Shown: positions 1-38,357, counted from the first letter of the stretch. The stretch is DNA of 64,000 nucleotides from an uncultured Mycoplasma sp. (GCA_947039505.1 CAMQYZ010000003.1:47323-111322), one strand, 5' to 3'. Numbers and translations: made by a program. Notes: a model not told the origin generated them from the sequence alone.

Positions 1-80
1 TTTCCATTTTTTTCCTAACGTTTAATTGGTATTAAATAAATTCCAATCACTTTTATAATATTTATATTATCATTCTTTAT

Positions 81-914: not shown

Positions 915-979
915 TTTTTAATTATATCTTAATTATATGTGTAATTGTTGGTTTGTTTAAGTAGTTAACAAATCTATGA

Positions 980-1762
980 TTAATATTTTTTTAAGTAATC
1001 ATTTTTATAATCTAAAATTATTTCCGTTTCACTTGTTAATTGATCTTTTAAAAATTCATGAATTCCCTCAATAAAAACTTCTTCAACTTTGTGCGATACA
1101 ATTACAAAATTAATTCCTAGATTTTGTAATACAACTTGTTCATTTCACTTAATATCTGAAGTAACTAATAGATCACAATTATCAATCTTATTATGTTCAA
1201 TAAATTCATAGATATCTCCAGCACCAGGGGAAAAATAAATTTTTTGAACCAAAGATTCAATCGGTTGAGATCAATTAGAAATAACATAATCTAAATTCAT
1301 TTGCTTTTTAATTAAATCGACTAATGAACTAAAGGAAGAAGAATATTTAATAATTGAGTTAAATTTATAACGTTTAACAACATTATTTAATAGATTTAAT
1401 TTTTTTAATAAATAATAATCAGTTCCCATAGTGTGCATATCAAATGATGTATGGAGAGCATAAGTTGCAATGTTGTTTTTCTCCACTAAATCAAATAATT
1501 CTTTTTTTGAAGGATCCAATATAATAGCTTCTGATTTAGAGGGGGCAAAGCAAAATGGGTGATGGGAAATAATTATTGAAACATCTTCTCTAATTGCTCT
1601 TAAAATTGTTTTTTTATCAACGTCAAGAGTAATAATAATTTTCAGTTGTTTGTTTTTCGAACCAAAAAAGGAAAAACCACCAAAATCTCAGGGTTCTTGA
1701 GATTTTAATGGAAATTCTTTTTCCAATAATTTAATTAAATTTGCTTGGTTATTAATTTTCAT
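980..1762 (-). CDS. NIF3/YbgI-family dinuclear metal centre protein
   Basis: Hand-translated 261 codons with several TGA codons. Motifs include ISHHPFCF and ALHTSFD. The ATG at 1762 overlaps the rpoD stop by 11 nt, and the stop is TAA at 980-982. Confidence 0.7.
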
Positions 1763-3407: not shown

Positions 3408-3409
3408 TT

Positions 3410-5149
3410 TTACTTCCCTTGTTTCTTATTTTTTGTTGTGATTGAACTTTGTATTATTTTTGAAATAAAATTATCATCTGGATTTTTATCAACTGTTTTT
3501 TCTAGTTTTGATTTATTTTGACTTAATTTTATGTCCAATTTATCTTTTTCCAAATTATGAATTGTTTCCATAAATTCTTCTTCTGTATTAGGTGGATTTT
3601 TCGTTTTTTCAATTTCCTTTAATTCTTTTTCTAATTCTTCATTTATACTGAAATTTTCTTCATTTTTTTTCATTATTATATAATTTGCCAACTCCATATA
3701 TTTTGGAGTTCCCAAAAAAACGTTTTGAGATAAAAAAATTGTTATAAGTTTAGGGTTCTTCAACATTCCTAACAATAATCTATTAATATTAATAAATATG
3801 TAAGTACCTTTTATTTTAGTTGTTTTTTGTTCATTTGTAACATAATTTTTAGCAATTATTTTATTTTTTTCAATTTTTGGTGTCTTTATTGGGGTCTTTA
3901 TTTGAAGAATTTTATTTATTTCATTTACTTCTATATTTAATAAATCAGAAATTTTATTTGAATATTGTGATTTAACAATTGGATCACATAAATTTAAGTA
4001 GTTATTTATTTTTTTTAGAAAGGGTTGGATATTATTTGAATTACTAATATCAATCGAATTTATTAAAAATTGATAAATGAATTCAATTCCTGACATTCTT
4101 TCATTTAATAAATTAATGAATTTTTTTTCACCCTCATTATTTAAATATTCATCAGGATCATAATTAGAATTATTTTTGATAACATTTACACCAATATTGG
4201 CTTTCATCAACAAAAAGATCGCTTTAATGGTAGCTTTTAAACCAGCTTCATCATTATCAAAGAAAAGAACTATTGAATGTTTTTTTAATTTTGATGTATG
4301 AATTTCAGAGATAGAAGTTCCCATTAAGGCAACAACATTATCTAAACCAACTCTCGCAAAAGCAATAACATCCATAAAGCCCTCAACCAAATAAATTTCT
4401 TTGCCAGTTTCTTTTGCTCTTCAAAAATTATAAATAATTGCTGATTTATTAAAAACAATTGAATCTCCAGAATTTATATACTTATAAACTTTTTCATCTT
4501 TATTTAGCGATCTTGAAGAAAGACCTACAATATCTCCAAATTCATTTTTAATAGGGAAAATTATTCTATCTGAAATCGTTTGATTTTCTTTTTCATTAAC
4601 TAATGATGCATTAATCATTGTTGAGATATTATTATTTTTCTTTAAAAGAAATTCTTTGTAACCTTCTATTTGTTTTTCTTTAGCATAACCTAAAGAAAAC
4701 ATATTTTGGATTTTGGAATCTAAATTTCTATCTTTCAAAAACTTCAAGGCATTTACATTTTCTTTAAATGTTAAATCATAAGAAAACTTTTGTGTAACAT
4801 CATTAAAAACTTTAATAATATCTTTTTGATTTTGATTGTATCTTGAATCTTCAATGTACTCAAAATTTTTATAATCTATTTCATATTTTTTTGCCAGAAA
4901 AAGAATGGCATCTTTTTTAGACATCCCTTGAAATTTTTCTAAGAAGGTAATTACATTCCCTGAAACTCCACAAGAAAAACATTTAAAAAATTGCTTTTCT
5001 TGAGAAATTGATAGTGATGGAGATGTGTCATTATGAACAGTACAAATTCCTTTATAGTTCTTACCCACTTTAGCAAGGTTAATAAATTCACCAACAATTT
5101 CAACAATGTCTGATTTTTGCAATATTTCATTAATTGTTGATGAACTCAA
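3410..5149 (-). CDS. dnaG: DNA primase
   Basis: CHC2 zinc finger CTVHNDTSPSLSISQEKQFFKCFSCGVSGN. Toprim motifs EIYLVEGFMDVIA and FFDNDEAG. TTG start at 5149 sits 4 nt after AAGGAG. 580 codons with one internal TGA. Confidence 0.9.
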
Positions 5150-5159
5150 AATTGCTCCT

Positions 5160-6527
5160 TTATTTTTTATTTATATATTCTTTAATATCTGTGATTGATA
5201 TTCTTTCTTGTTCCATGGTATCTCTATTTCTAATCGTTACTTTTTTATCTTCTAAAGAATCATAATCAAATGTAATTGCATAATATGTTCCGATTGAATC
5301 TTGACGTCTATATCTTTTACCAATTGATCCCGTCTCATCAAAAGAAGTTGCTATATCATCTTGCACAAGATCTAGAAATATGTTTCTAGCTTCAGGAGAT
5401 AATTTTTTTACCAAAGGTAATATTGCTACTTTGTATGGAGCAATATCCTTGTCTAATTTTAAAATTATTCTTTCATCATTTTCAAGTTTTTCAACTTCAT
5501 ATGAATCAACTAAAATAGCCAATAATAATCTATCAACACCCACAGATGGCTCAATAACTGTCGGAATAATAAATTCATTTGTTTCTGGGACTAAATATTG
5601 TAATTTAGTATTAGCAAACTTATTGTGCGATGATAAATCAAATTCTTGACGATTAGAAATACCCATAACCTCACCTCAACCGAAAGGATAAAGGAATTCG
5701 ATGTCACTTGTACCTTTTGAATAATGAGCTAACTCATCTTTTTCATGAACTCTTATTGATAATGATTCTTTTTTAATTCCTAAAGACAAAATGAAATCAT
5801 GTGACTTTTGAACATAATAATTATAATCTTTTTCACTTCTATCAGCAAAAGTAAAAAACTCTAATTCCATTTGCTCAAATTCTCTAGTTCGAAAAATAAA
5901 ATTCCCCGGAGTGACTTCATTTCTAAAAGATTTTCCTATTTGACCAACTCCAAAAGGAAGTTTTAATCTTAATGATCTTTGGATATTATTGAAATTAACA
6001 AAAATACCTTGAGCAGTTTCTGGTCTTAAATAAATGGAATTTTTAGTTTCTTCCACAACTCCTTGAGATGTTTCAAACATTAAATTAAATTGCTTGATAT
6101 CAGTTCAATCAGTTTTTGAACCATCATATTCTTTCACATTATCTTTTAGAAATTTTGCTAAAAGTTCATTACTCATTCCATTTGCATTTTTCTTGCTTAT
6201 TTCTTCATAAATATGATCTGCTCGATATCTTTTATGATTAATTTTATTTTCTATTAGTGGATCAGAAAAATTAGAAATGTGTCCACTAGCTTCTCAAATT
6301 TTGGGATTAAGTAAAATTTTGGAATCAAGTCCAACATTGTTAATTTCTAAGTTAATAAAATTCTTTCATCATTCTTTTTTAATTTTATTGATTATAGCAA
6401 TTCCTAGAGGTCCATAATCCCAAGTGTTAGAAAGTCCTCCATAAATTTCTGAACTTTGAAATACAAAACCTGAATTTTTTAAATGGTTAACAATATCTTT
6501 CATGTTTTTTTTATTATTTACAACCAT
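5160..6527 (-). CDS. glyQS: Glycine--tRNA ligase (single-chain class II)
   Basis: N-terminal [22 protein letters not shown]. Motif 2 region is [35 protein letters not shown] and a C-terminal anticodon-binding domain are present. 456 codons joined across TGA codons. Confidence 0.9.
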
Positions 6528-6780
6528 ATTCCATCTTTCCCATAAATTTATTATGTATATATTTATAATTTTATATTAATATATCTTAATTATAGTAATA
6601 TTTAGGATTTGTATTATTCTTTGGTGAGTTTTATAGAAAAAATGATAAAATTTTTTTATTATGATTAACAATTTTGAACAATTTAATTTTTCTTTACCAG
6701 ATCGTGTGCCTAGCGGTATTTTCAATCTTTCTTTTTTATCTTGACAAGGTAATGCCATTAGTTTTAAAGAATCTTTATGA

Positions 6781-7650
6781 ATGGTATATTTGATTTATGC
6801 TCTATTAATAGTTAGTTGCTTTTTTGTTTTTATTTTTAAAGATAATGTTAGAAAATTTTATTTAAGAAATACAAAAAATGTTATAAATGTTACTCAGGGT
6901 TTGGGGATTTTTATTATTGCTTTATCTAGTTTTAGAATAACAATCCTAGCTGTTGGTGGTTATCCCAATTTATGAGAACTTGTTCCTTTTCACTTTTGTA
7001 GATTATTTATTCTTTTAATATCATTTTCATTAGCTTTTAGACAAATACATTTAGTAAAATATTTTAGTGTATTTGCAATAGGTGGTGGAATTATGGGTTT
7101 ATTAATTCCGGATTTAAATAACTCAGAGTATTGAACAGAATTTGGTGGAGCTGATTTAGGTATTGATAGTTATGTTTTTTGAGATTATTTCTTTATTCAC
7201 TCTGCATCTGTTTTTCTAAGTGTCTTTTTATTAACATCGCTAAAACCTGTGTTTTATAAAAGTGAAATGGCTTATACAATTATTACTATGGCTTCATTTA
7301 CAATTATTTTATTCTTGACTAATTTGGCACTTTCAAATGTACCTGATCAAAGATGAAGATCTAATTGATTTTATTTAGGAGTTCCTTCAAGTAATGGAAT
7401 AGATGATTTATTAGCGCCATTTTTAGGACCATTAGTTTCTTATCCAGCAATCTTGTTTACCTTTATGACTATTGGTTCAATCATTTATATAGGTGTAACA
7501 ATGATTTACATTAACTCTGATAGTATACAATTCGTTTTATGAGATGAAGAAAAATCTTCTCATACTTTAAAAATAAAATTCATTCCTTCAGAGAATATGT
7601 ATAAATTCAAAGTTGGTCCTCTAAAATATCGTGAAAAATATAATTTATAA
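6781..7650 (+). CDS. Polytopic integral membrane protein, family unassigned (possibly YwaF-like)
   Basis: 290 codons under table 4 with six internal TGA codons. There are multiple hydrophobic helices. This is the only plus-strand gene in the first 50 kb. Confidence 0.6.
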
Positions 7651-7796
7651 TAGCAATAGCAATCATTTTTATATACTTTATTATTGATTAATCAAAACTA
7701 CTTGAAAATAAGTTATTCAGTTAAAAGTAATCTATGTTATTTAACTGAGCTAACTAGTAAATTTTCATTTTACTAAATCCTTATCGTCAAAACAAA

Positions 7797-7822
7797 AAAA
7801 CCTTTATTGGATTAAAGGTTTT
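7797..7822. terminator. Bidirectional rho-independent terminator between convergent genes
   Basis: AAAACCTTTA-ttggat-TAAAGGTTTT forms a 10-bp stem with an A-run upstream and a T-run downstream. It lies between the membrane protein gene (+) and tsf (-). Confidence 0.6.
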
Positions 7823-7845
7823 ATTTTATTTTTTAGTCAAAATTA

Positions 7846-8718
7846 TTAGTTTGACATTTGAGCTTTAACTTCAGCTGCAAAATCAACAGATTCTTTATTG
7901 ATTCCTTCACCAACTTCAAAACGAACCATAGCTATTTCAGTTGCATTTTTTTCACCTAAATATTTAGCAATAGTTTTTCCGCCTTCAACAACATATTCTT
8001 GTTCAGTCAATGTATCTTCTGAAAGTGATTTTCTAAGCATTCCTTTTAGAATGTTTTCTTTAATAGCTTCTGGTTTACCTTGTAAAGCAGGAGATTCAGC
8101 AAATTCAGCTTTTAACTTATTTACTCTTTCAGCAGGAACTGAAGATTCATTTAAAAACTCAGGATTCATCGCAGTGATATGCATTGCAATACCTTTTAAC
8201 GCTTCATCACTTGAACCTTTAGCTACAAATAAAGCAGCTTTTTGTCCATCTGAGTGAGTATAGTTACCAATGAAAATTCCATCTTCTTTAGCAAATTTTA
8301 CAGCTCTTCTAAATGAGATTTTTTCACCAATTGTTGATGTTGCTAAAGTTGCCAATTCTTCAATTGTTTGTCCTTGAGCATTTTTCAATTTTGCAGCTTC
8401 TTCATCTGTTGCAAATTCATTAGAAATTAGAATATTTCCAATTTCATTAACTAAAGCAATAAATTTATCATTTTTAGCAACAAAATCTGTTTCTGAATTC
8501 ACTTCATAGATAACACCAAACTTGTCATTAACAAGTGTTGATACTAATCCTTCAGCAGCAATTCTTCCTGATTTTTTAACAGCTTTAGCAATTCCGTTTT
8601 CTTGTAATCACTTAATTGCTTCTTGGATATTTCCACTAGTAGCGTCTAAAGCTTTTTTACAATCAACAAAACCACTTCCTGTTAATTCTCTTAATTCTTT
8701 AATTGGATTTCCAGACAT
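7846..8718 (-). CDS. tsf: Elongation factor Ts
   Basis: N-terminal UBA-like [37 protein letters not shown]. The EF-Ts core has [10 protein letters not shown]. The ATG overlaps the rpsB stop as TAATG. Confidence 0.95.
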
Positions 8719-9692
8719 TAATTATCTCCTTCTTTTTTAGTTTTAACTTCAGGTGTTGCAGGCTTATCTTTATTTGCATAAAGAGGTCTTGGAACTCAAC
8801 CTTCTGGTCTTTCTCTATTTTCTCATGGTCTTTTTTTGTATTCTCCACCTTCAAAGTTTCTGTTAGGAGTTCTAGTGAATTGACGTCTTTCTTTATTAGC
8901 ATCAACTGGCAATACAATTTTATCATCAGGTTGGTAAGCAAATTTAACTGTTCCATTTTTAGCTTCAACAATAGCATCTGCCAAAATAGTAATAATCAAG
9001 TTTAATGATTTTACAGAATCATCATTTGCTGGTATTCCTAAATCTACCAATTCAGGATCACAATCAGTATCAATAATTCCAATAATTTTAATATTTCTTT
9101 TTCTTGATTCTTTAATAGCAATTAAATCATCCATTGGATCAGCAATAATCATAAATTGCGGAGCTGAATTCATATTTCTAATACCTTGTAAGTTTTTTTG
9201 TAATTTATCAAGTTCTTTCTTTTTAAGAATTCCTTCTTTTTTAGTATATCCTTCAAAATTTCTTTCTTCAAGTTTTTCTAAATCTTCCATTGCTCTAACA
9301 CGAGAAAAAATAGTTTTATTATTAGTTAAAGTTCCACCCAATCATCTTTCACTTACATAAGCTGAATTTGTTCTTAGGGCTTGTTCTTTAATTACTTCTT
9401 TTGCTTGTCTTTTAGTACCTACAAAGATAAAGTTAGCACCTTTTTGAGCAGCTTTAAATATTAATTTATAAGCTAATTCTAATGATTTTTGTGTTTTTGA
9501 AACATCAATAATATGAGTATTCATTTTTTGTGTATGGATGTATGGAGCCATTTTTGGATTTCACTGAGATTTTCTGTGTCCAAAATATGTTCCTGCCTCC
9601 AATAGTTTTTTTGTTGAAACAATTTCACCTGTTCCAGAAGCACTTAAACTTGTTTGTTCAAGAGAAGCTTCTTTTTGTTGGTCTTCTGACAT
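8718..9692 (-). CDS. rpsB: 30S ribosomal protein S2 with C-terminal extension
   Basis: Motifs [25 protein letters not shown] and IIDTDCDP. Three TGA codons are read through. Hand translation reaches TAA at 8718-8720, giving 325 codons. Confidence 0.95.
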
Positions 9693-9899
9693 ATATTTTC
9701 CTTTTAGTTTGTTGTTTTTCTTCCTAAAACTTCAAATCAACTAGCATCATGTTTTCACATGACACACCCAATTGAATCCGTAATAGTGCGTATTTTTTTC
9801 ATCTTAATTATTTAATGATTTAAATATCTAAAATAATTTTAACATATATAAGGATATTTGCCCATAAAATGATTTCAAATTATCATTTTCAGAATAAAT

Positions 9900-11111
9900 T
9901 TAATAAACCCTCTTGGATAGAAAATTAATCATTTTTTCATCCATTATTTCTGGTCTAATCCTAACTTTATATAATTTTAAATCATCAAATAAATATTTTT
10001 CATTTTCTTTGTTATAAATCATTTCTCCTTTAATATTAAAATTAAAATATTTTTTATCAAAAAAACGATGGTATCTTACACACATCAATAAACCATTTTT
10101 CGGATCTATTGCATATGATTTTATTGACTCTTTATCTTTGTCAATAATCTTTTTTTCTAATTCTTCTTTTATTCTTCATTTATCGAAAATATGAGCAGCT
10201 TCTAAATCATTAATTCTTGCAACTATATTATTCTCAAAATTATTTTCTTCATATATTTCTAAATCTGAATATAATTCTCCTGATTCTCCCTTTAATAATC
10301 CCAATGATTTTCTATCTTGTTCTATTGATTTTTTAAATTTGTGAATTTCCGAATTAACACTTCACTCTTCTTTTAACTCATTTTCAAAAATAATAATTTT
10401 TTGTTCATTTTTGTTTTGAATAATTTCAAAAATAAAATTGACTAAAGTTTCTAAATTTGTTTGCTTACAAGTATTTTCTACTATTTGTTTGTAAGTTTTT
10501 TTATAAGCGTCTTTTCAATTTATTTTCTCAACAAATTTTACAATATCAAATTTTTTTGAACCATCTATTTGCTTTATAACAGAAACTATTCTGTTTTTTT
10601 CACTTAATTCCATTCAATCAAATTGATAAAATTTTAAAATATTTAAGAAGAGTGAATAAGTTAATCTAACAGAAGATTTGTGAGAGCTTTCTGTTCCATT
10701 TTTAATTAATTGACAAATAACTCTTCAACTTTTATCACTTACAATCTCTTCTATTGTATTTTTGAAAGAAGAGGGTAATGAGTATGTGTCGTCTTTTTCA
10801 TTATCAAATAAAATTCCACACATTCGTAAGACTTTTATATATTGTTTTATTGCTGATTTTGACGAATACATTGTAGTTGAAATAGGGGTTACATCAACTC
10901 CATCAATCAACATTTGATATGTATCATTTTTATTATTATTTTTTATATCACTTTTAACAACTTCTATTTGATAAATATTTTTAACATCAATTTGCTTAGT
11001 TTTTTTGTAAAGTCTGGTCAATATACCAAAAGGGTCTGTACCCATATTTCAAAATTGTTTACTATTAGAAAAAGAATCTAATATAAAATTTACCTTATCA
11101 TTAAGATTCAT
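9900..11111 (-). CDS. Putative restriction endonuclease with C-terminal HNH_2 nuclease domain
   Basis: 404 codons joined over TGA codons. The C-terminus carries DLEAAHIFDKW and NGLLMCVRYHRFFDKKYF, the Pfam HNH_2-type pattern. The start ATG at 11111 overlaps the methyltransferase stop by 11 nt. Confidence 0.6.
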
Positions 11112-12387
11112 TATTCAACTCCTGTATTTTTTTAATAATTGCCGTTATTGCATATACAGCAATAGAGTTTCCAGCTTGTTGATATAATTTTTCTTTTCTA
11201 ATATTTTGCTTTTTCACATTATTAAAATCTTTGTCATCAAATCCCATAAGCAAATATGCTTCGCGTGTGGTAATAAATCGATAATTTGCTTTTACCTTGT
11301 CGGTAGTTTCTAAAATTGTATTTTTTAAATTAATAACTCCGGCATTTGGATGTCTATCTTGTTTGGTAGTTACTGTTCTAGAATATTTATAATTATCAAA
11401 GTCATTTAATTTATAATTTAAATTAAACATTCTTTCTCTAGAAGGAGTTCTATTAGGTCTTACTTCAAGCGCTTCACTCTTATAAGTTTCATTATTATAA
11501 TTTTCCTTAATGATATCCTTCAAAGTTCTTGTTTTCAATTTTGATACTTTTTTAAATTTAGTAGGAAATATTTTTTCATCAAGGTCAATAATCTCGAATT
11601 GTTTATCAACTTTATAATTGCTCTTAATGGAAATTGCATAAACTCTTTTTCTATTTTGAGCAAGTCCATGATCACGAGCATTAACAACATATGTTTTAGT
11701 TTGATAGCCCAAACTGAAAAGTTCTTTTTTTCAAGCAATGTAATCTTTGACATGACGAGAACTAATCATATTAGGAACATTTTCCAAAAGCAAAAATTTT
11801 GGAGTTTTGTCAATTTCCTTAAGTTCGTTTAAGATTCTCCCGATTTCTCACAATAGTCCTGAACGTGTTCCTTCACCCTTCGCCATACCTTGATTAAAGC
11901 CGTGAAATGAGCCTGCAACAGATAAATCTTGACAAGGAAAGGAATAAGTTATTAAGTCAATTTGGCCAATATTTTTAAATAACCCCCCCCCCTCAATGCT
12001 GAGGATACTACCCTGGTTATGTGAAATTACATGCGCCTTATAATATTTGATTTTTCGATTAAGTTCCATCGCGTATATTTTCGCCAAAGGAGTTAAATCC
12101 TTTCCTGAAAAAGAATGATCAAATCCCGATAAATATTCATTCATCTTTTTTTCAGAAACTGTTTTGATTATTGTTTCAAATTTTGGATAGTGAATAGCTG
12201 CATAAGAAATTTGAGCATCTACATCTCATTCACTTGTTCCGACAACTTCATAATTGTAATCATAATTATCTTTTAAAAATTGTAATGCTTTGTGTTGTGC
12301 ACCGATTCCCGAAAATGTTTCAAAAACCTTTAATGTTTTTGATTCAGTTATTGGTTTTTGTGACAATTTAGGTTTTGTTAAGTTCAT
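11101..12387 (-). CDS. DNA (cytosine-5)-methyltransferase
   Basis: Motif I is FSGIG, motif IV FPCQDLS, motif VI ENVPN, motif VIII QNRKRVY and motif X GNSIAV. 429 codons. Contains the G10 tract. Confidence 0.9.
11983..11992. repeat. Homopolymeric C10 (G10 on the coding strand) inside the methyltransferase ORF
   Basis: Counted directly: aaCCCCCCCCCCtc. It encodes E-GGG-L between motifs I and IV and is currently in frame. Confidence 0.95.
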
Positions 12388-12708
12388 AGTAATGATATTT
12401 TAAACTGTTTAAATGTTTTTTAACCAGTTTTGCTGACATTGAAAAAACAATAAAATTGAAGAATGATCAAACTGTGACTACTTTTCTTTTAAGAACTTCT
12501 TCAAAAAGACTTAAAAGAAAATGAATAATTTAAATAATATTATAAATTCCATTAATTCTATAATTTAAAAATAATTGATAACAAATCCTCTGGGAAAAGA
12601 GAATTTCATGTTGCAGCATTTGATAGGAAAAGTAATTGATTTTGAGATTTCTAATTTAACCAAAAAAACTATCAATTCATTCTTTATAAAAAAGAATACT
12701 TTTTAAAT

Positions 12709-14643
12709 TTATTTGATTCTAAGTAAGGTTTGTTCTATGGTATTTAATTTAACTGTAGAACCAATAGCAATTGTTACTATTGGTAATGTGTGAGAAAAAT
12801 CAAATTCTGCCAATATCGGAATTTTTAAATCATATATAAATTCTTTAATAAAATCATAGTATTTTATTCCATTAGATATTTCTTCAAATCCTTCACATTT
12901 TCCTATAATTAAACCACCAACTTTATGTAATATTCCACTATTTCTTAAAGAAGCAAAATTTTTCTCAATTTGTGCTAAATTTAAATTATTATTGCTACAT
13001 GTATCTTCAAAAAAAAGAATAGTTTTATCATCTATTTTGGGAAAATATTTTGTATTTATCATAGGGATAAAAGTATTTAAATTTCCACCTATAAGGACTC
13101 CTTCTACAACTCCTTCTACAAGAGTAATCATTTTGTTTTTTTTCATCTCTTTATTCGGTACAGGTTCATCATCAGATCAAGGAATAAATTGAGATGTATA
13201 TTTATCAGGAATAATTAATAAACCCAATTTATCATTAATACAATTATCTATTAATGATTTAAGATGAAAATCATTAATATCTTCTTGATTATCAAATCCT
13301 AAAATAAAAGAAGAACTATAATATGTTATTTTTTTAGTTATTGTATAAATGGCTAATATTAATGCAGTTGTATCACTGTGACCAATTATTTTTATTTTAC
13401 TTTTACCGATTTTTTCATAATCTAAATATTCTAATATTGAAGAAGTGTTGTTGCCACCTATTGAAGACATTAAAATATCTATATTTTCATCATTTACTAA
13501 TTTGTTTATCTCATTAGCCCTTTCTAAAGCAGTTCCTGTTCGATAATTTTTATTGGTAAATGATAAATAACCATGAATAACATCAAATCCATTATTTTTT
13601 AAAAAAGTCTCCGATCTTTTACATTTATTAGGGAATATAGAAATAATTGGAGTTGATGAATTATAAATACCTATAACAACTTTATTTTTAAAAAAATATT
13701 CTTGAATATTAAAATCTCAAAAATTAATTAATATTTTTTTGTTAATAGTTTGTGCATTTTTTTTATCAAATAAAAAACACAAAAATTCTTTTATAGCTAT
13801 CGAACTAGAAATTTTGTTTATACCCAAAAAAGAAGGTGATTGGTATCATGAATTTATTTTATATATACTTTTATTTTTAACATGAATATTTAATGCTTTT
13901 TCATATTGAGTATTTTTTTCAAAAATAATTGGACCAACAGAAATAAAATCATTTATATATCCAGCATGTATATAAGGTATTTTTTTTTCTGTAAAAAAAT
14001 TATATGCTTCAATTGCTATTGATTGCGGAGAATCAGCTGATACAAAAGCAAAATCAGGAAACTTTGACAAAACTATATTTGAACTAAATTTTTTCAAATG
14101 TTTCTCAACATAAATTTCTTTATCTCATGATTTAATATATTTTTCCATAATATCAATTTTATATTTTCCGACATCATCAAAGGTAAAGATTATCTGTCTA
14201 GTTAAATTACTTTCTTCAATTTCGTCATCATCAACTAAAATAATATTTTTGACATTTAATCTCAACAATTCAATTATTATATTATTTCCTATGCCACCAC
14301 ATCCAGCAATTAAAACTGTCTTGTCTTTTAACTTACTTAAATTAAAATTATCAAAACTTGAATCTAAAAACTGATTATGTCTATTATATAATTCTTCAAA
14401 TTTAAAAATAAAATTATCAGATTTTTCCAATATATTTTTTTCTTGTAGTTTATTTTTTATTGTTTCTCATTCACTAGTTTCTGGAATGTGTTTGGAAAGA
14501 TTGAAATCACTAAAAATTTTATATTCTTTTTTACTTAATTCAACTAATTTAATATTAATTTTAGAAGCAAAAAAATGTAAAATAAATTTTTCTTCAACTT
14601 CATCAATTTGCATTAATCTGTAATAAGGTTTAATTTTTAGCAT
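12709..14643 (-). CDS. Fusion protein: MccB-like (ThiF/E1 superfamily) adenylyltransferase + MccF-like S66 serine peptidase
   Basis: 644 aa in one frame. I checked the junctions 13146-13177 and 13470-13846 codon by codon and found only TGA, no TAA or TAG. The N-half has LYNRHNQFL, GCGGIGNN, ESNLTRQ, FVSADSP and HAGYINDFISVGP. The C-half has GHSDTTAL, FFEDT and DFSHTLP, a Ser-Glu-His triad. Confidence 0.7.
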
Positions 14644-14701
14644 TGTATATGTTTTGATAAAATAACAATAAATGAAAACTAAACTAAGAACTAAAATTTA
14701 T

Positions 14702-14737
14702 TTAGTTAAAATTAATAACTGATCATTCTATTGGCAT
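14702..14737 (-). CDS. Candidate 11-codon micro-ORF MPIEWSVINFN (possible MccA-like precursor)
   Basis: ATG CCA ATA GAA TGA TCA GTT ATT AAT TTT AAC TAA ends in Asn. It lies 58 nt upstream of the fusion gene and downstream of a TATAAT box. There is no independent support for it. Confidence 0.2.
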
Positions 14738-14768
14738 TTAATCATCTTTCGGTATTTATTCTAATTCT

Positions 14769-14774
14769 ATTATA
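14769..14774 (-). promoter_or_regulatory. Putative -10 box (TATAAT) upstream of micro-ORF and MccB-like gene
   Basis: A perfect TATAAT on the minus strand with a TTGTTG/TTTTGT-like element about 15-17 nt upstream. AT-rich context makes chance matches common. Confidence 0.3.
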
Positions 14775-14869
14775 TCAAATTATAAATACAACAAAATAAT
14801 AATTGCATTATTATTAAAATTCTGACTTAGTTAGGATTTTAATTTGCTGTCTTTTTAAAGACTATCATA

Positions 14870-16555
14870 TTATTTTTTATGTTTAATGTTGTAATCTATT
14901 AATTGTTCATCACTTACAACTGAAGGAGATTCTGACATCACATCAATTCCATTTGCGTTTTTTGGAAAGGCAATAACATCTCTGATTGATTTAGACTTTG
15001 ATAAAATCATTAAGATTCGATCAACTCCAAAAGAAATTCCTCCATGTGGTGGAGCTCCATATTTAAATGCTTCTAAAAAGAAACCAAACTGTGACATAAT
15101 TTGTTCGTCTGATAGTTGAAGTGTTTGGAAGATTTTGGTTTGCAATTCACGATCATTAATTCTGATTGAACCTGAAGATAATTCATAACCATTTAAAACT
15201 AGGTCGTATGCTCTTGCATTTACTTTCAATGGTTCTTTATCCAAATACTTTAAAGTTTCGCTTGTAGGGTGTGTAAATGGATGGTGCATTGAAGATATAC
15301 GACCTTCTACTTCTTCAAACAAAGGTCAATCAACAATTCATACAAATTTATATTCATCATCATTTGCATAGGTAAATAATTCGTTAGCTTTAGTTCTAAT
15401 AGCACCTAATGATTGATTAACATTTTCTAATTTATCAGCAACAAAGATCAATGTTGAATTAGTTATTTTAAATTGTTTAATAATTTCATTTAATTCATTA
15501 GCAATAATGGTGTTTAAATTATTTTCATTAAATTTCCCATCGGTAATTTTAATTGCAATAATTTTTTCCGCTTTATTTTTAAGAGCGATTTCTTCAAGTA
15601 CTTTAATTTCTTTTGAAGATAATGAGTGCTCAAAGTTAAGCATTTTAATTGCTTCTTTTTGAAAGATTTCTGATTTTACATTTTTAAAGATATCTGATAC
15701 TTCTAAAAGTTTTAAATCAAATCTTAAATCAGGTTTATCACAACCATAAGTATTCATTGCGTGTGCAAAAGTCATTCTTTCAAATTTTGGGCTTAACTTA
15801 TATCCAACAACACTCATAATTTCAATTCAAAGATTTTCCATTACTGAAAATAGTTCTTCTTCATCGATAAAAGACATTTCCACATCAAGTTGAGTAAATT
15901 CTGGTTGACGATCTTTCCGCATATCTTCATCACGAAACGCTCTAGCTACTTGAAAATATCTTTCAAATCCCGAAATCATTAACAGTTGTTTATACAATTG
16001 TGGTGATTGAGGAAGGGCAAAAAATTTACCATCATTTCTTGTTGGAACTAAAAAGTCTCTGGCACCCTCTGGAGTTGATTTAGAAAGCACAGGGGTTTCT
16101 ATTTCCAAAAAACCATTTGCATCAAAGAAATTTCTAGCTGCTCTTAAAACTTGATGTCTTAATAATAAGTTTGCATACATTTTTGGTCTTCGCAAATCTA
16201 AATATCTATGCTTTAATCTAGTATCTTCTTTGGCGTTTAAATCATCTTTAATTTCAAAAGGCAATTCATCTGATTTACTTAAAATTTGATAACTTGTAAT
16301 ATTGATTTCATAATTACCTGTTGGTAAATTAGGGTTAGGAGATTTACGTTTAACAATAGTTCCAATAACTTGTAAAACTGATTCTTTACTAAAGTCAATT
16401 TTGTCAGGAAAAACCAATTGAACAAACCCAGTTCTGTCTCTAAAATCAACAAAAGAAATTTGACCCATTTTTCTAATATTAGAAACTCATCCATAGAGAG
16501 TTACAGAATCATTTTCTTTTAATTTTAATATATCTATATTATTTATTTTTTTCAT
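14870..16555 (-). CDS. aspS: Aspartate--tRNA ligase
   Basis: OB-fold N-terminus. Motifs QSPQLYKQLLM and FRDEDMRKDRQPEFTQLDVEMSF (motif 2), a GAD-type insertion, HHPFTHP and GISFGVDRILM (motif 3). 562 codons. The start overlaps the hisS end by 17 nt. Confidence 0.95.
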
Positions 16556-17816
16556 TTTTAATTCCTTCTAAAATGACATTCATGACTTGATTATTTTCAA
16601 CTTCAATTTTAACATTTTTAATTATATTTTTGATAGTTATTAGTTTGTTTGATGGATTTTCAAATAATTCATAGTAAACTATTTGCTTTGCTCCAAAAAG
16701 ATTAGCATCAGCAAAAATCTTTTTTTGCTTTAAGAATTTTTTATTAAAATCAACAATAATGTTTTGTTTTCTTAGTTCACAAATAATGGGAAATAGCATT
16801 GTAAATTCTTCTTGATTATTAATCATAAAATAAACATCAACATCATCTTCTTTGATATCAGCACTATCTTTTAAAATTTCGAATAGTCTTTCCACGCCAA
16901 CTCCAAAACCAACACCAACAATATCTTGACCTGAATTTTGAATTAAATTATCATAACACCCACCACCTATGATAGTCGATTTAGTTCCTAATGATTTTGA
17001 ATCAGATTCAAATTCAAAAACAACATTGGTATAATAATCAAGTCCTCTTACCAATACGGGATCCACTTCATACTTAATTCCAAAACTTTTTAATAATGAT
17101 AAAAGTTCTTCAAAAGATTTTCTAGACTCTTCTGAAAGAAAATCATTAATTTTGGGAGCATTTAAAACAACCGCCTTTTTCGAATCAACTTTGTCATCTA
17201 AAATTCGTAAGGGATTATTGTTAATTCTTGAAATTGATAAGTTAGAAAGTTCATTTTGGTTTTGGGAAAAATAACTTGATAATTCTTTGGTAAAATTTAT
17301 CCTTTCTTCTTTTGTGCCGATATTATTGATTTTTAAAATTCAATCATTTATTTTTAAGGTTGTTAAAAATTGTTCAGCAAGTTTAATAATTTCGATTGTG
17401 GAATAAATATGATTGTCACCAACAAGTTCAGCACCAATTTGATAAAATTGTCTCATTCTTCCTTTTTGGGGTTTTTCATATCTAAACATTGGGCCAATAT
17501 AGAAAAGTTTATTAAACTTCTTATCAATTAGAAGTTTATTTTCTACCATTGCACGAGCAACAGGGGCTGTTCCTTCAGGTCTTAAGGCTAATTCTCTATT
17601 TGATAAATCTTTAAATGAATAAAGTTCTTTAACAACAATATCGCTCGTTTCGCCAGAAGTATCTTTAAATAAAGATAGTGCTTCAAAAATTGGTGTAGTT
17701 ATCTTTTGAAAATTATATGATTTTGCAAGAGATTCAAAGGAATTAAAAATCAATGAATAAATTTTTTGATCATTTCCATATATATCTTTAGTTCCCTTTG
17801 GTCTTTGTATCATCAT
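16539..17816 (-). CDS. hisS: Histidine--tRNA ligase
   Basis: Motifs RPKGTKD, LRPEGTAPVAR, FRYEKPQKGRMRQFYQIG, RGLDYYT, GGGCYDNL and GFGVGVERL. The start is taken at MMIQRPKGTKD rather than the upstream TTG in the ORF track. Confidence 0.9.
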
Positions 17817-17821
17817 ATTCC

Positions 17822-17853
17822 TTTCAAAAAATAAAAACCCACTCGGGGTTTTT
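17822..17853 (-). terminator. Rho-independent terminator/attenuator after secDF
   Basis: AAAAACCC-cgagt-GGGTTTTT on the minus strand forms an 8-bp stem, followed by ATTTTTT. It lies immediately before the hisS ribosome-binding site. Confidence 0.6.
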
Positions 17854-17907
17854 ATTTCCAACAATTAATCCCTTATGTAAATTAATTTTATCAAATAAAT
17901 ATTTGTT

Positions 17908-20403
17908 TTATTTAATATCATTAATACCTAAGAAAATTTGTTCTTGAATATTTTGTGTTTCTCAATAATTATTAAGAATTTTTTCTCTTTTTCTTCGACT
18001 TTTGAAAGCTTTAAAAATAGTGAATAAGTAAGGCAATATTATTGTTGATATCACTAATGACATTAATATAAAAATCATTAGAGGTATTGTGAACAATATA
18101 TTTTGAGCACCTGGGAATATCGTGAATATTAATAAAGTAATCATTAGTATTCCATTAGAAATCAATAATCTTTTAAAAGAATCCTTAACAACTAAATCAG
18201 TTATTCCAGTTAGCTCTGTTTTTGTTAATTCTTCTGTTTTTTTATTCTTTAATTTTTCTTTAATTCTAAACAAAATAGATAAATTATTTGATACAGCAAT
18301 TAAAATGGCTGACGATAATCCAAAGATAAAGAATGTGTTGAATGTAAAGATTTGGAATGTGAATAACACTATAAATAAAATAATAGCAGCAGTTAGTGAG
18401 AAGAACATTGCCAATGCATATGATCAATCTGTTTTAATTAGTACAAAGATTGTCATAATTATTATTGTAGCCAAAGCAATATACATCACATGCAGGATTG
18501 ATTGATTTGCATCTTTTGCCAAAATAGAATAATTTATTAAAAATAATCCTTGATTACGCAATTCTAATATTTTTTGATCATCAATTACTTTATTGGTCAA
18601 TATTTCCAACACATATGGTTTTGACGAATTTTCTGTTTTATCCGCTAATTTTAATGTTATTTCATTTTTAGAAATACCAAGTTCTTCTTGTAAAATATTT
18701 GCAAAATCTTTTGCTTGTACTTCACTCATAGAATTTGTTGACTTTAAAACAGTAGGATTGGTCAAAGCTCCAGCAGAATTAAAACCATATACTCAATTAG
18801 AACCTAAAAGACTAAATGTTGCAAATAACGTTGTTCCTACAATTGCAACAATTCCCAAGATTAAAGATAATGTTTTTTTACAAATACCTATTTTTCTAGA
18901 ACTTGAAGTTGAAGAATCAATTAGCGATGTTTGCTCTAAAGGATTAATTTGACTTTTTTCCAAATCCATATTTAGATTAACTGATTTAACTTTTGATTTA
19001 TTTCTTTTTTTGTAAATACCGAATAAGTAGATTTTGTCATCAAATACATTTGTACCTAATATCAAATTTGTCAAAATTCTAATTAATGCAAGCATGATTA
19101 TTGATGTAAAAATTGACATAATTAATATCAATGCAGAAAATGTTCCTAAATATAAAGAACCAGCAACATAAATTATAGTTGAGGTTATCATAAGACCTAT
19201 TGCTTTAGCAATTGAAGAGGACATAGTTAGTTTGTCAGCTTTTTTCAAAGATTTTTGTAAACCATTTCCTAATTTTAATTCTTTTTTCAATCTTTCGAAA
19301 AAGACAATATTAAAATCTAATCCAATTCCTACTGCAAGCATTAAGGCAGCTATTGCTTCTGCAGAATAATCACCTCTAAATACAGTTATCATCAATAAAC
19401 CAAGAAAAATCAAAAAAGCAGCACATATTGTTGATAAAGCACCCAATAATCCATAATTAACAATTAAAAATATGGCGATAAAAGAAAATGCCACAATTGC
19501 TGCAATCATCAAAAATTGTGAAGCATTATTTCCAAATGTAGGAGAAATAAAATTAGATGTTTGAATATTTAATAAATATGGCGATACCGAAAAGTCTAGA
19601 TTATAGAAAATCTCTTCCCTTTGTTCTTTTGTGATTTTTGGTGCAAAAGCAAAATCTAAATTTAAAGAAGTAGAAAATACTCCATCTTCAGGGGCGGTAT
19701 TTTTTGATATCAAGTAATCTGTAGCATTAAATCCTCCAAAAGATTCAGTTTTTAAAATCGCTTTAGGACCATTTTCTACATCTTCTATTATTCCATTGAT
19801 ATATAAAAATTTATAAGGATCTTTATTAACTTCTGCAGACGTTCATTCATCATTATATTCAGTAGAAGCCAATTTCATTAATCCTGACAAATCTTTTCAA
19901 ATCAAAATATTTTCTTTTGAATATGAAGGACTTTTTAAATCCAAAGATATTGAATCATTTGTCATAGTTGCATTACTAAAATTGAAAATTAATTCTTTTG
20001 GTTTTCCATCTAATCCCAAATTTTGTGTAGTTACAGTTGTTTTGTCTTTATTTGAAATAAATGATTTAAAAAAATTCATTTGTTCATTTGTATCAACATT
20101 TGTACCAGTAATGGTCAAAAAATCATTAGAATTTAATGTGACAGCATAACTTGAATCACCTGGAAGACTAAGTCTTAATCTTTGTTCTACTTGTCTCTTG
20201 ATAACTTCGGGAGTATCATCTAGGTCAGTTATTTTCAGAACTACTTCTGCACCTGATTTATAATTTATTGTTGGTTTATTATTGGACACTCCATAGACAG
20301 AACCCAAGGCAACACCAAGCGTCATAGAAATCAAAGAAATAGATGAAATAGTTCATCTTTTTCAATTAGATAATTTGAAAATTTTCTTAACCTTGTTAAA
20401 CAT
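17908..20403 (-). CDS. secDF: Protein translocase subunit SecDF (fused)
   Basis: Five same-frame pieces give 832 codons. It has an N-terminal TM helix, a large extracytoplasmic domain, then two six-helix bundles with the SecD/SecF-type FFERLKKEL segment. The terminal TGA at 17962 is read through to TAA at 17908. Confidence 0.8.
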
Positions 20404-38348: not shown

Positions 38349-38357
38349 TTCTTCTCC

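What the first reader, a model, noticed from the sequence alone, without database searches (positions are those of the whole stretch)
12709..14869. MccB-like adenylating enzyme fused to an MccF-like peptidase, preceded by Asn-terminated micro-ORFs, immediately downstream of aspS
Under table 4 the four ORF-track fragments between 12709 and 14430 are a single 644-aa protein. I checked the junctions and found TGA only.

Residues ~105-330 carry an E1/ThiF adenylation core. Its motifs are the variants I associate with microcin C synthetase MccB rather than ThiF/MoeB: LYNRHNQFL, GCGGIGNN, ESNLTRQ, FVSADSP and HAGYINDFISVGP. This core sits behind a ~100-aa N-terminal domain, where MccB has its peptide clamp.

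Residues ~330-644 are an S66 peptidase with an intact Ser-Glu-His triad (GHSDTTAL, FFEDT, DFSHTLP). A wall-less Mollicute has no murein tetrapeptide for an LD-carboxypeptidase. An MccF-type role, hydrolysing an aminoacyl- or peptidyl-nucleotide for self-immunity, is therefore the more economical reading.

MccB substrates are tiny ribosomal peptides ending in Asn, and the 226-nt spacer up to aspS contains two such ORFs:
- MPIEWSVINFN (14702-14737) lies behind a TATAAT at 14769-14774. Its stop sits inside a weak AT-rich hairpin at 14689-14707, 58 nt before the enzyme start. This is the same layout as mccA-terminator-mccB in E. coli.
- MIVFKKTAN (14839-14868) starts 1 nt after the aspS stop.

Processed microcin C is an aspartyl-adenylate mimic that inhibits AspRS, and the adjacent gene is aspS. 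No MccC-type exporter is nearby. I am not aware of a described MccB-MccF fusion or of an mcc-like locus in Mollicutes.
Basis: partly seen in the sequence, partly recalled or inferred. Interest (0 to 1): 0.85.

Follow-up and report, generated by a model that had tools for sequence, protein, structure and literature searches.

The report
Exporter-less microcin C module in a mycoplasma
An uncultured mycoplasma carries a two-gene version of the microcin C "Trojan-horse antibiotic" system: a conserved 11-residue peptide gene followed by one gene that fuses the antibiotic-making enzyme to the self-protection enzyme, with no export pump, an arrangement not described before.

Summary
Under genetic code 4, window 14643..12709 (minus strand) is one 644-aa ORF. 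Its N-half belongs to the MccB clade of ThiF-like enzymes. Its C-half is an MccF-type S66 peptidase with the catalytic triad and the adenine-stacking Trp intact.

The decisive new evidence is comparative. In seven intact loci whose enzymes are only 38-73 % identical, an 11-12-codon ORF lies directly upstream. All seven peptides fit P-x-x-W-x4-[F/L]-N-stop; in the window it is MPIEWSVINFN. The nearest stand-alone relatives of the N-half sit in classical mccA-mccB-MFS clusters.

MIVFKKTAN is a chance ORF. The aspS adjacency is incidental: the module lies in a 5-kb variable defence-island slot (window 9869-14868) that holds other genes in a relative with 93 % identical EF-Ts.

No locus has an exporter. 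The N-terminal "clamp" could not be shown to be homologous to MccB's. MccB's zinc site is absent.

Several lineages keep the peptidase half but have lost or degraded the synthetase half, as expected for immunity against a diffusible toxin.

Verdict: a real, previously undescribed variant of a known kind of system. The chemistry is inferred, not shown.

The parts
14702..14737 (-). mccA-like precursor gene: ATG CCA ATA GAA TGA TCA GTT ATT AAT TTT AAC TAA = MPIEWSVINFN-stop. The Trp is encoded by TGA.
   Evidence: Sequence read directly. Equivalent 11-12-codon ORFs fitting P-x-x-W-x4-[FL]-N-stop lie directly upstream of every intact fusion gene found.
12709..14643 (-). Single 644-aa gene (code 4) encoding the MccB-like / MccF-like fusion protein, stop codon included.
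   Evidence: Table-4 translation; Pfam ThiF + S66 + S66C; PDB matches to MccB and MccF.
14389..14643 (-). N-terminal domain, aa 1-85: four beta-strands followed by helices. It occupies the position of MccB's peptide clamp, but homology is unproven.
   Evidence: AF2 models. hhalign against a canonical clamp profile gives probability 4.7 %. The domain-only model has no significant fold match. Its first strand carries the motif [IL]K.[YF][YC]RLM that is conserved within the fusion family.
13690..14388 (-). MccB-type adenylation (ThiF/E1) domain, aa ~86-318. It has GCGGIGNN, NLTRQ (R149), K162 and S202-A-D204, and lacks the Cys4 zinc site.
   Evidence: phmmer: MccB 2.8e-27 against PaaA 1e-13, ThiF 1.5e-9, MoeB 1e-5. 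Residue mapping to E. coli MccB. NJ tree.
12709..13689 (-). MccF-type S66 serine peptidase domain, aa ~319-644, plus the stop codon.
   Evidence: phmmer: B. anthracis MccF 1.4e-58 and E. coli MccF 1e-51, against LdcA-type 6e-15 or weaker. Foldseek TM 0.92, rmsd 1.8 A to MccF. Residue mapping.
13375..13377 (-). Codon of Ser423, the predicted nucleophile (= E. coli MccF S118, B. anthracis S112).
   Evidence: Alignments.
13177..13179 (-). TGA codon of Trp489 (= MccF W186/W180, the residue that stacks on the adenine).
   Evidence: Role of W186 from PMC8323819.
13006..13008 (-). Codon of Glu546 (= MccF E243). It is followed by a subclade-specific 4-aa insertion, and the Lys equivalent to K247 is missing.
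12790..12792 (-). Codon of His618 (= MccF H311).
14769..14777 (-). TGATATAAT, an extended -10-like element 31 nt upstream of the peptide ATG. The same nonamer precedes the peptide gene in L002.
   Evidence: Sequence. Not statistically distinguishable from background in this AT-rich DNA.
14689..14707 (-). Weak 7-bp hairpin (AACTAAA-TAAAT-TTTAGTT) spanning the peptide's stop codon; a possible attenuator or terminator.
   Evidence: -3.8 kcal/mol, z = -1.3. L002 has a hairpin in the same place, z = -1.9. The other loci have none.
9869..14868 (.). 5.0-kb variable island between aspS and rpsB. It carries the mcc module plus a C5 DNA methyltransferase (11101-12387) and an HNH protein (9900-11111).
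   Evidence: blastn against L020: homology runs over window 1-9868 and 14869-18077 (84-94 %) and is absent in between. Gene contents.

Best explanation
This is a minimal, accessory microcin-C-type (peptidyl-nucleotide) module of an uncultured Metamycoplasmataceae bacterium.

Proposed mechanism:
1. The 36-nt gene at 14737..14702 is translated into the leaderless precursor (f)MPIEWSVINFN.
2. The MccB-like N-half of the 644-aa protein binds the peptide and activates its C-terminal Asn with ATP. As in E. coli MccB, the reaction would pass through a succinimide to a peptide-isoAsn-N-P-AMP phosphoramidate. AMP is likelier than CMP, because all known cytidylating MccBs carry a methyltransferase domain that is absent here.
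3. After uptake by a competitor, probably through an oligopeptide permease, and degradation of the peptide, the released aspartamide-adenylate would inhibit aspartyl-tRNA synthetase.
4. The MccF-like C-half hydrolyses the carboxamide bond of any toxic processed product in the producer's own cytoplasm. Fusing it to the synthetase guarantees that production and immunity are inherited and expressed together in a minimal genome.

Shown here: domain identities, catalytic residues, the conserved precursor, accessory-island status, and the existence of immunity-only derivatives.
Inferred: the chemistry, the nucleotide used, the target, release without a dedicated pump, and the ecological role.
For: Single ORF under code 4.

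N-half:
- phmmer hierarchy MccB 2.8e-27 >> PaaA 1e-13 >> ThiF 1.5e-9 > MoeB 1e-5, aligned over the whole adenylation domain.
- ATP-binding residues conserved.
- The fusion N-halves form one clade (100/100 bootstraps) nested among MccB-like enzymes including E. coli MccB.
- The nearest stand-alone relatives sit in classical clusters: MIGPSHN or MFGFGGFGN, then a hairpin, MccB and an MFS pump, or MccB followed by an S51 immunity peptidase.

Precursor:
- Seven intact loci carry MPIEWSVINFN, MPIEWIIVGFN, (V/M)PITWFNITLN, MPISWFNLTLN, MPGSWFVSIFN, MIPSTWAVNVFN and MLPTTWSINAFN.
- Most have AAAGGAG-type Shine-Dalgarno sites. The gap to the enzyme start ranges from 86 nt to a 14-nt overlap.
- The pattern is found only there: 7 hits against 0.08 expected.
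- The surrounding spacers are not alignable.

C-half:
- MccF 1.4e-58 and 1e-51 against LdcA-type 6e-15 or weaker; TM 0.92, rmsd 1.8 A.
- S423/E546/H618 triad, W489 = W186, N523 = N220, and the MccF-specific loop that LdcA lacks.

Immunity-only derivatives:
- L008: internal deletion of the ThiF core.
- P0028: stand-alone S66, 66 % identical to the C-half.
- P0029: adenylation motifs destroyed, S66 triad intact.

Accessory status: presence/absence polymorphism at a conserved backbone site.

Literature: all MccA peptides end in Asn and target AspRS (PMC9239234). Peptide parts of 10-12 residues are taken up well, and the Yersinia product is an 11-mer (PMC8323819).
Against: - None of the eight loci has an export gene, although export is considered part of the minimal mcc gene set (PMC9239234, PMC6385645).
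- MccF enzymes cleave intact as well as processed McC (PMC9239234), so a fused MccF might destroy the product.
- The window's subclade lacks the Lys equivalent to MccF K247 and has a 4-aa insertion next to the catalytic Glu.
- The N-terminal domain shows no detectable homology to the MccB clamp by profile (probability 4.7 %) or by fold search.
- The clamp residues that read fMet/Arg2 in E. coli are not conserved, and the Cys4 zinc site is absent.
- The invariant Trp and Pro have no role in known McC chemistry.
- There is no expression or biochemical evidence, and all members come from MAGs or metagenomes.
Confidence: 0.72

Rival explanations
1. Same enzymes, different biology. The module is not an exported antibiotic but an intracellular toxin/immunity pair. 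It could be an addiction module, or an abortive-infection-type defence in which the peptidyl-nucleotide or its warhead accumulates and shuts down AspRS when the balance between the two activities is disturbed, for example by phage infection. No pump would then be needed.
For: No exporter in any locus. Several loci lie in defence-island contexts: in the window, an MTase+HNH pair in a slot that holds GmrSD in the close relative L020, with GmrSD, MTase+HNH and a Thoeris TIR protein upstream of rpsB in L022/L023. L008 lies between an Eco47II R-M system and AbiEii, and L006 lies next to hsdS. Synthetase and detoxifier are physically fused.
Against: Lineages that keep an intact S66 half after losing the synthetase (L008, P0028, P0029) are expected for immunity to an external toxin, not for an internal pair. 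PADLOC gives only generic E1 Rossmann hits (1e-11). Bacteriocin loci also commonly sit in variable islands. No phage contig carries the module.
Confidence: 0.14
2. The ThiF-like half performs a different RiPP reaction on the peptide. One possibility is adenylation of the C-terminus followed by attack of the conserved Trp indole or another nucleophile, giving an IndF/GrcB/PaaA-type macrocycle. The S66 half would then act as a processing peptidase rather than a nucleotide-directed immunity enzyme.
For: Trp is invariant exactly six residues before the C-terminus, and Pro three residues before the Trp; neither has a role in McC chemistry. ThiF-like RiPP enzymes catalyse several different reactions, including Trp-to-C-terminus indolylamide formation (PMC12150305). 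The N-domain is unlike the canonical clamp.
Against: The C-terminal residue is invariantly Asn, the MccA hallmark needed for the succinimide route, whereas IndA ends in Ile and has a leader, a protease and a transporter. The adenylation domain is far closer to MccB than to PaaA, and its nearest relatives are in mccABC clusters. The C-half retains the nucleotide-binding Trp and loop of MccF and superposes at TM 0.92.
Confidence: 0.1
3. Housekeeping reading: a ThiF/MoeB sulfur-carrier adenylyltransferase fused to an LD-carboxypeptidase, with the upstream micro-ORF irrelevant.
For: Pfam and NCBIfam name the domains ThiF and muramoyltetrapeptide carboxypeptidase.
Against: All NCBIfam equivalog scores are far below their cut-offs: ThiF 74.7 against 159, MoeB 53 against 449, LdcA 95 against 378. 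MccB and MccF are much better matches. The island has no ThiS or MoaD partner. Mollicutes are wall-less and have no murein tetrapeptide (established knowledge). The gene is absent from close relatives, and the micro-ORF is conserved.
Confidence: 0.02

Closest known systems
E. coli microcin C7 cluster mccABCDE + mccF (plasmid-borne; compared directly with NZ_CP009074, locus L012)
   Same: A short leaderless precursor ending in Asn lies immediately upstream of an MccB-type adenylating enzyme, and an MccF S66 peptidase is the self-immunity determinant. The ATP-binding residues of MccB are conserved, as are the S/E/H triad, W186 and N220 of MccF.
   Different: Here MccB and MccF are one polypeptide. 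There is no MccC pump and no MccD/MccE. The precursor is 11-12 aa with conserved Pro and Trp rather than the 7-mer MRTGNAN. The Cys4 zinc site is absent and the clamp residues are not conserved. The host is a code-4, wall-less Mollicute.
Minimal mccABC clusters of Helicobacter, Streptococcus and Lactobacillus (Bantysh et al. 2014, PMC4010828), and the metagenomic relatives L016 and L018 found here
   Same: Small gene count, unmodified peptidyl-nucleotide expected, and an Asn-terminated peptide with a strong Shine-Dalgarno site. These are the closest stand-alone relatives of the N-half.
   Different: Those clusters always include an MFS or ABC exporter and usually no MccF. Their peptides are mostly heptamers and are followed by a clear GC-rich hairpin.
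Yersinia pseudotuberculosis and Bacillus amyloliquefaciens MccB with a C-terminal methyltransferase domain
   Same: They are a precedent for MccB carrying an extra enzymatic domain at its C-terminus. The Yersinia end product carries an 11-residue peptide (PMC8323819).
   Different: The fused domain there decorates the nucleotide (carboxymethyl-cytidine). Here it is the immunity peptidase. The Yersinia precursor is 42 aa and needs proteolysis.
Stand-alone MccF homologues (for example B. anthracis BA_1949, PDB 3gjz/5k99)
   Same: Best sequence and structure match of the C-half (1.4e-58; TM 0.92). They act as orphan resistance genes, like L008 and P0028 here.
   Different: They are not linked to a synthetase. 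The window's subclade lacks the K247-equivalent Lys and has a 4-aa insertion after the catalytic Glu.
IndF/IndA indolylamide RiPP system of Streptococcus pneumoniae (PMC12150305)
   Same: A ThiF-like enzyme acts on the C-terminus of a Trp-containing peptide.
   Different: IndA has a leader and ends in Ile, and its cluster has an M16 protease and a transporter. Neither a terminal Asn nor an MccF is involved.

Membership tests
MccB (microcin C-type peptide nucleotidyltransferase, ThiF/E1 superfamily) | ThiF-type adenylation domain with an intact nucleotide-binding loop and catalytic Arg/Lys/Asp | tested here: met
   Pfam ThiF 7e-24. GCGGIGNN, R149 (=R157), K162 (=K170) and S202/D204 (=S212/D214) are conserved.
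MccB (microcin C-type peptide nucleotidyltransferase, ThiF/E1 superfamily) | Closer to validated MccB than to PaaA, ThiF or MoeB | tested here: met
   phmmer: 2.8e-27 (MccB) against 1e-13 (PaaA), 1.5e-9 (ThiF) and 1e-5 (MoeB). In the NJ tree the fusion clade nests among MccB-like enzymes, and the ThiF+MoeB split has 100/100 support. PaaA was not in the tree.
MccB (microcin C-type peptide nucleotidyltransferase, ThiF/E1 superfamily) | N-terminal peptide-clamp / RRE domain | tested here: inconclusive
   A ~85-aa domain with a beta-sheet followed by helices occupies the right position, and full-length Foldseek alignments span about 345 columns of MccB. But hhalign against a clamp profile gives probability 4.7 %, and the domain-only fold search has no significant hit.
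MccB (microcin C-type peptide nucleotidyltransferase, ThiF/E1 superfamily) | Cognate short precursor encoded directly upstream, ending in Asn | tested here: met
   Seven intact loci have 11-12-mers ending in Asn. The pattern is specific to that position.
MccB (microcin C-type peptide nucleotidyltransferase, ThiF/E1 superfamily) | Structural Cys4 zinc site (present in E. coli MccB; probably not strictly defining) | tested here: not met
   C257/C260/C343/C346 equivalents are absent in all fusion proteins.
MccB (microcin C-type peptide nucleotidyltransferase, ThiF/E1 superfamily) | Forms a C-terminal N-P phosphoramidate peptidyl-nucleotide | not testable with these tools
   Needs an in vitro reaction and LC-MS.
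mcc biosynthetic gene cluster (minimal mccABC) | Export gene (MccC MFS or ABC) in the cluster | tested here: not met
   None is present in the 5-kb island or in any of the eight loci. The literature defines the minimal set as including export (PMC9239234, PMC6385645).
MccF (S66 microcin C immunity peptidase) | S66 fold with a Ser-His-Glu triad | tested here: met
   S423/H618/E546; TM 0.92, rmsd 1.8 A to MccF structures.
MccF (S66 microcin C immunity peptidase) | MccF clade rather than LdcA clade; MccF-specific loop with an adenine-stacking Trp (W186 Ec / W180 Ba) | tested here: met
   1.4e-58 and 1e-51 against 6e-15 or weaker for LdcA-type chains. The loop is present, with W489 aligned to W186, whereas LdcA has a ~30-residue gap there.
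MccF (S66 microcin C immunity peptidase) | N220 and K247, the two residues mutated together with S118 in the E. coli MccF active-site mutant (PDB 3tly) | tested here: inconclusive
   N523 = N220 is conserved. The K247 equivalent is present in L004, L006 and L010 but absent in the window, L002, L008 and L009. The presumed role of these residues in recognising the acidic side chain rests on my recollection of the E. coli MccF structural work.
MccF (S66 microcin C immunity peptidase) | Hydrolyses aspartamide-adenylate or aspartyl-sulfamoyl-adenosine and confers McC resistance | not testable with these tools
   Needs an enzyme assay or a resistance assay.
LD-carboxypeptidase LdcA | Equivalog-level similarity and a murein tetrapeptide substrate | tested here: not met
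   NCBIfam NF008424 scores 95.2 bits against a cut-off of 378. The host is a code-4 Metamycoplasmataceae, which are wall-less by established knowledge.
ThiF / MoeB sulfur-carrier adenylyltransferases | Equivalog-level similarity and a ThiS/MoaD partner | tested here: not met
   ThiF 74.7 against a cut-off of 159; MoeB 53.4 against 449. The island has no small ubiquitin-like partner gene.
IndF-type indolylamide RiPP system | Leader-containing precursor, M16 protease and transporter; C-terminal residue not Asn | tested here: not met
   The peptides here are leaderless 11-12-mers ending in Asn, and no locus has a protease or transporter.
CBASS Cap2 / E1-E2 defence proteins | Full-length match to E1-E2 models | tested here: not met
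   Only the Rossmann segment (~aa 100-190) matches, at 1e-11 or weaker.

The most novel reading that the evidence does not exclude
The exporter-less mccA + mccB-mccF module may be a self-contained intracellular toxin/antidote device carried in mycoplasma defence islands. In this reading the cell makes an AspRS-poisoning peptidyl-nucleotide and continuously destroys it with the fused MccF domain. Perturbing that balance, for example by phage infection or loss of the island, arrests translation. That would make a RiPP antibiotic pathway repurposed as an abortive-infection or addiction system, and the first RiPP-type natural product pathway in Mollicutes.
Probability: 0.14. Interest if true: 0.85.

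Novelty: new variant of a known kind. Interest (0 to 1): 0.62.

Why it matters
Microcin C-type Trojan-horse antibiotics are a well-studied model for RiPP biosynthesis and for aminoacyl-tRNA-synthetase inhibitors. The field defines the minimal cluster as precursor + MccB + exporter. Published genome mining has required a neighbouring transport or modification/immunity gene, so this family may have been filtered out. It is also hidden by TGA-encoded Trp residues in both the peptide and the enzyme.

If the module works as inferred, several things follow:
- It would be the smallest known complete production-plus-immunity unit, 2.0 kb with two ORFs.
- It would be the first such pathway in wall-less, genome-reduced bacteria.
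- It would be a natural single-polypeptide synthetase-immunity fusion.
- It would raise testable questions: how the product leaves the cell, how the fused MccF spares the intact product, and what the invariant Pro/Trp do.
- The immunity-only derivatives would suggest ongoing chemical warfare among uncultured mycoplasmas.

Practically, it offers a compact cassette and new peptide carriers for AspRS-targeting warheads directed at Mollicutes, which are intrinsically resistant to cell-wall antibiotics.

Tried and rejected
- MIVFKKTAN as a second precursor: rejected. It has no counterpart in any other locus, and 10 % of micro-ORFs end in Asn by chance.
- Functional linkage to aspS, as a resistance copy or by co-regulation: rejected. 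aspS is the backbone orthologue in strains that lack the module, and the module sits elsewhere in other genomes.
- mccA-terminator-mccB attenuator: the hairpin is not significant, the terminator scan found none, and most loci have no room for one.
- Promoter scan: uninformative in 25 % GC DNA, 25 sites against 24.2 expected.
- Clamp homology by profile-profile comparison and by domain-only fold search: nothing significant.
- Plasmids, phage contigs and JGI metagenome contigs: no fusion found.
- Searching metagenomes with the peptide's DNA pattern gave 51 chance hits, none next to a ThiF-S66 gene.
- Rfam: nothing in the region.
- PADLOC: no defence-family membership for the fusion.
- Literature searches for Mycoplasma/Mollicutes with MccB, MccF, microcin C or RiPP, and for MccB-MccF fusions, found nothing relevant. 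The supplementary table of the 2019 survey has no Mollicutes. The figure-only tree of Bantysh 2014 and the supplement of the 2021 review could not be read.
- The first tree script timed out and was re-run.
Full report
**1. What is in the sequence**

The window has 25 % G+C, and its genes are interrupted only by TGA, so it uses code 4. EF-Ts, encoded 4 kb away, is 84-89 % identical to proteins of MAGs labelled Metamycoplasmataceae bacterium and only 63 % identical to the nearest named species, Mesomycoplasma moatsii. The organism is therefore an uncultured Mollicute.

On the minus strand, 14643..12709 translates under table 4 into one 644-aa protein. It has five TGA (Trp) codons and no other stop. 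Pfam places ThiF at residues 97-249 and the two S66 peptidase domains at 324-442 and 514-633.

**2. Identity of the two halves**

*C-half.*
- Against all PDB sequences, residues 323-640 match the microcin immunity peptidase MccF of B. anthracis (1.4e-58) and of E. coli (1e-51). Murein LD-carboxypeptidases reach only 6e-15 or weaker.
- An AlphaFold model (mean pLDDT 86.9) superposes on MccF structures at TM 0.92 and rmsd 1.8 A.
- Aligned with E. coli MccF taken from a real mcc plasmid, the triad S118/E243/H311 maps to S423/E546/H618. The adenine-stacking W186 maps to W489, which is a TGA codon. N220 maps to N523.
- The long MccF-specific loop that LdcA lacks is present.
- One difference: the window's subclade lacks the Lys equivalent to K247 and has a four-residue insertion after the catalytic Glu.

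*N-half.*
- Residues 103-311 align with E. coli MccB 114-331 at 2.8e-27, against 1e-13 for PaaA, 1.5e-9 for ThiF and 1e-5 for MoeB.
- The nucleotide-binding loop, R149, K162 and S202/D204 are conserved. All four zinc-binding cysteines of MccB are missing.
- All NCBIfam ThiF, MoeB and LdcA equivalog scores are far below their cut-offs.
- In a neighbour-joining tree, the N-halves of six fusion proteins form one clade (100/100 bootstraps) nested among MccB-like enzymes including E. coli MccB. ThiF and MoeB fall outside.

*N-terminal ~85 residues.* These fold into a beta-sheet followed by helices, at the place where MccB has its peptide clamp. I could not show homology: profile-profile probability is 4.7 %, and the isolated domain has no significant structural neighbour.

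**3. The precursor peptide**

A single Asn-terminated micro-ORF means little here, because 10.2 % of the window's 812 ATG micro-ORFs end in Asn. I therefore collected relatives. Fusion proteins are rare. The word-indexed search of 5.8 billion proteins found six. An exhaustive HMMER search of 1.84 billion representatives found only four that span both halves: P0029, P0030, P0006 and P0033. There are none on 72,556 plasmids, none on phage contigs and none in JGI metagenome contigs.

Their contigs are all low-GC, code-4 Mollicute DNA, several labelled uncultured Mycoplasma or Metamycoplasma. Every intact fusion gene is preceded by an ORF of 11 or 12 codons:

| Locus | Peptide |
|---|---|
| window | MPIEWSVINFN |
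| L002/L003 | MPIEWIIVGFN |
| L004 (GTG start) | PITWFNITLN after the initiator |
| L010 | MPISWFNLTLN |
| L006/L007 | MPGSWFVSIFN |
| L009 | MIPSTWAVNVFN |
| L011 | MLPTTWSINAFN |

- The common core is P-x-x-W-x4-[F/L]-N-stop. The Trp, almost always a TGA codon, is always six residues before the terminal Asn.
- Most of these ORFs have AAAGGAG-type ribosome-binding sites.
- The distance to the enzyme start ranges from 86 nt to a 14-nt overlap.
- The enzymes are only 38-73 % identical, and the spacers are not alignable. The ORF is therefore maintained by selection on the peptide.
- In six-frame translations of 131 kb of non-redundant sequence, the pattern occurs seven times, always at this position, against 0.08 expected.
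- As a negative control, the bare DNA pattern has 51 chance hits in the JGI collection, none next to such an enzyme.
- The second ORF, MIVFKKTAN, has no counterpart anywhere.

**4. Relatives point to microcin C chemistry**

The closest stand-alone relatives of the N-half lie in textbook clusters:
- MIGPSHN, GC-rich hairpin, MccB, MFS pump.
- MFGFGGFGN, hairpin, MccB, MFS pump.
- MccB followed by an S51 peptidase, a known McC immunity type (PMC9239234).

All known MccA peptides end in Asn and all tested compounds target AspRS (PMC9239234). All known cytidylating MccBs carry a methyltransferase domain (PMC8323819), which is absent here, so adenylation is the likelier reaction.

The alternative Trp-directed chemistry of IndF involves a leader-containing precursor ending in Ile, plus a protease and a transporter (PMC12150305). 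None of these applies here, but the invariant Trp and Pro remain unexplained.

**5. Genomic setting**

The module is accessory.
- A relative with 93 % identical EF-Ts (L020) has the same secD-hisS-aspS ... rpsB-tsf backbone at 84-94 % nucleotide identity. Window 9869-14868 is replaced there by DUF5677, GmrSD and another methylase.
- Two further relatives carry GmrSD, an MTase+HNH pair and a Thoeris TIR protein upstream of rpsB.
- None of these relatives has the fusion gene or the peptide.
- In the window the island also carries a C5 methyltransferase and an HNH protein.
- In other genomes the module follows an ABC transporter operon, pheST, uvrA or sugar-metabolism genes.

The aspS adjacency is thus a by-product of an integration hot spot, and aspS is the ordinary housekeeping copy. 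No locus contains an exporter.

**6. Decay patterns**

- L008 retains the first ~75 residues joined directly to an intact S66 half. Nucleotide similarity to the window covers only 14512-14676 and 12761-13675, so it is an internal deletion. It has no peptide gene.
- P0028 is a stand-alone S66 protein, 66 % identical to the window's C-half.
- P0029 is full length but has GTNEIANN for GCGGIGNN, NLSIPF for NLTRQF and Y for the conserved Arg, with the S66 triad intact.
- L005 has lost the peptide's stop codon (TAA to CAA), has an altered glycine loop and an apparent frameshift in the S66 half. An assembly error cannot be excluded.

Repeated loss of the synthetase with retention of the peptidase is what one expects if the peptidase protects against a compound that also arrives from outside.

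**7. Interpretation and limits**

The best-supported reading is a minimal microcin-C-type production-plus-immunity module. The steps that are shown and those that are inferred are listed under the best explanation.

Open problems:
- There is no pump.
- MccF is known to cleave intact McC (PMC9239234).
- The K247 equivalent is missing in this subclade.
- The N-domain is unrecognisable.
- The zinc site is absent.
- There is no experimental evidence at all.

I found no paper describing an mcc-like locus in Mollicutes or an MccB-MccF fusion. One published survey required a transport gene in the cluster (PMC6495379), which would have excluded this family. The figure-only tree of Bantysh 2014 and one supplement could not be inspected.

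I therefore rate it a new variant of a known kind, of solid interest to the RiPP, microcin and mycoplasma fields.

Noticed in passing
window 9869-14868; L020 3209-8799; L022 and L023 ~1500-8800: The slot between aspS and rpsB-tsf is a hypervariable defence-island hot spot in this Metamycoplasmataceae lineage. Different strains carry GmrSD type IV restriction, DUF5677, C5-MTase+HNH pairs, a Thoeris ThsB-TIR protein and an ABC-ATPase there.
   Followed up: partly
window 11101-12387 (-) and 9900-11111 (-): A C5 DNA methyltransferase (PADLOC type II/orphan MTase, 6e-52) overlaps by 11 nt a 403-aa protein with a weak HNH_2 hit. This is a probable R-M pair, and the same pairing recurs in L022/L023.
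   Followed up: partly
window 12435-12543: A 111-nt stretch in the spacer downstream of the fusion gene is 78 % identical to the inside of the DUF5677 gene of L020 (4056-4163). It looks like a remnant of earlier cargo in the island.
   Followed up: no
window 59446-62693 (-): A Gabija anti-phage system: GajA (60984-62693, PADLOC 8e-54) and GajB (59446-60996, 1e-61). A neighbouring 686-aa P-loop protein (56886-58946) has no defence-family match.
   Followed up: partly
window ~32400-41200 (-): A tandem array of at least six paralogous lipoprotein genes (MKTKKLLPLALLP(L/I)GIIPL(I/V)TISCS...), interspersed with two 105-aa ORFs that share the same first 40 residues (35056-35373, 36693-37010). It looks like a variable surface-lipoprotein locus.
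   Followed up: no
window 50020-50931 (+) and 53987-54880 (+): Two paralogous ~300-aa genes (M..KRH.H.FPHFLIKNW...) flank a 402-aa gene of unknown function (52000-53208).
   Followed up: no
P0104, P0106, P0152, P0130: Other MccF-like S66 fusions exist outside Mollicutes: about 750-aa high-GC proteins with an unrecognised ~420-aa N-terminal region, S66+HD and S66+DUF952. They suggest that S66 nucleotide-directed peptidases are often recruited into fusions.
   Followed up: partly
window 14870-16555 (aspS) and L004 1127-4521 (pheST): Two of seven independent module insertions lie directly downstream of aminoacyl-tRNA synthetase operons. This is probably chance or a preference for operon ends, and it was noticed post hoc.
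   Followed up: no
L009 4940-4978, L011 3896-3934, L005 ~5975-6010: In the 12-mer subfamily, the enzyme's ATG lies inside the peptide ORF in another frame (14-nt overlap). This implies translational coupling rather than the attenuator layout of E. coli mccA-mccB.
   Followed up: partly
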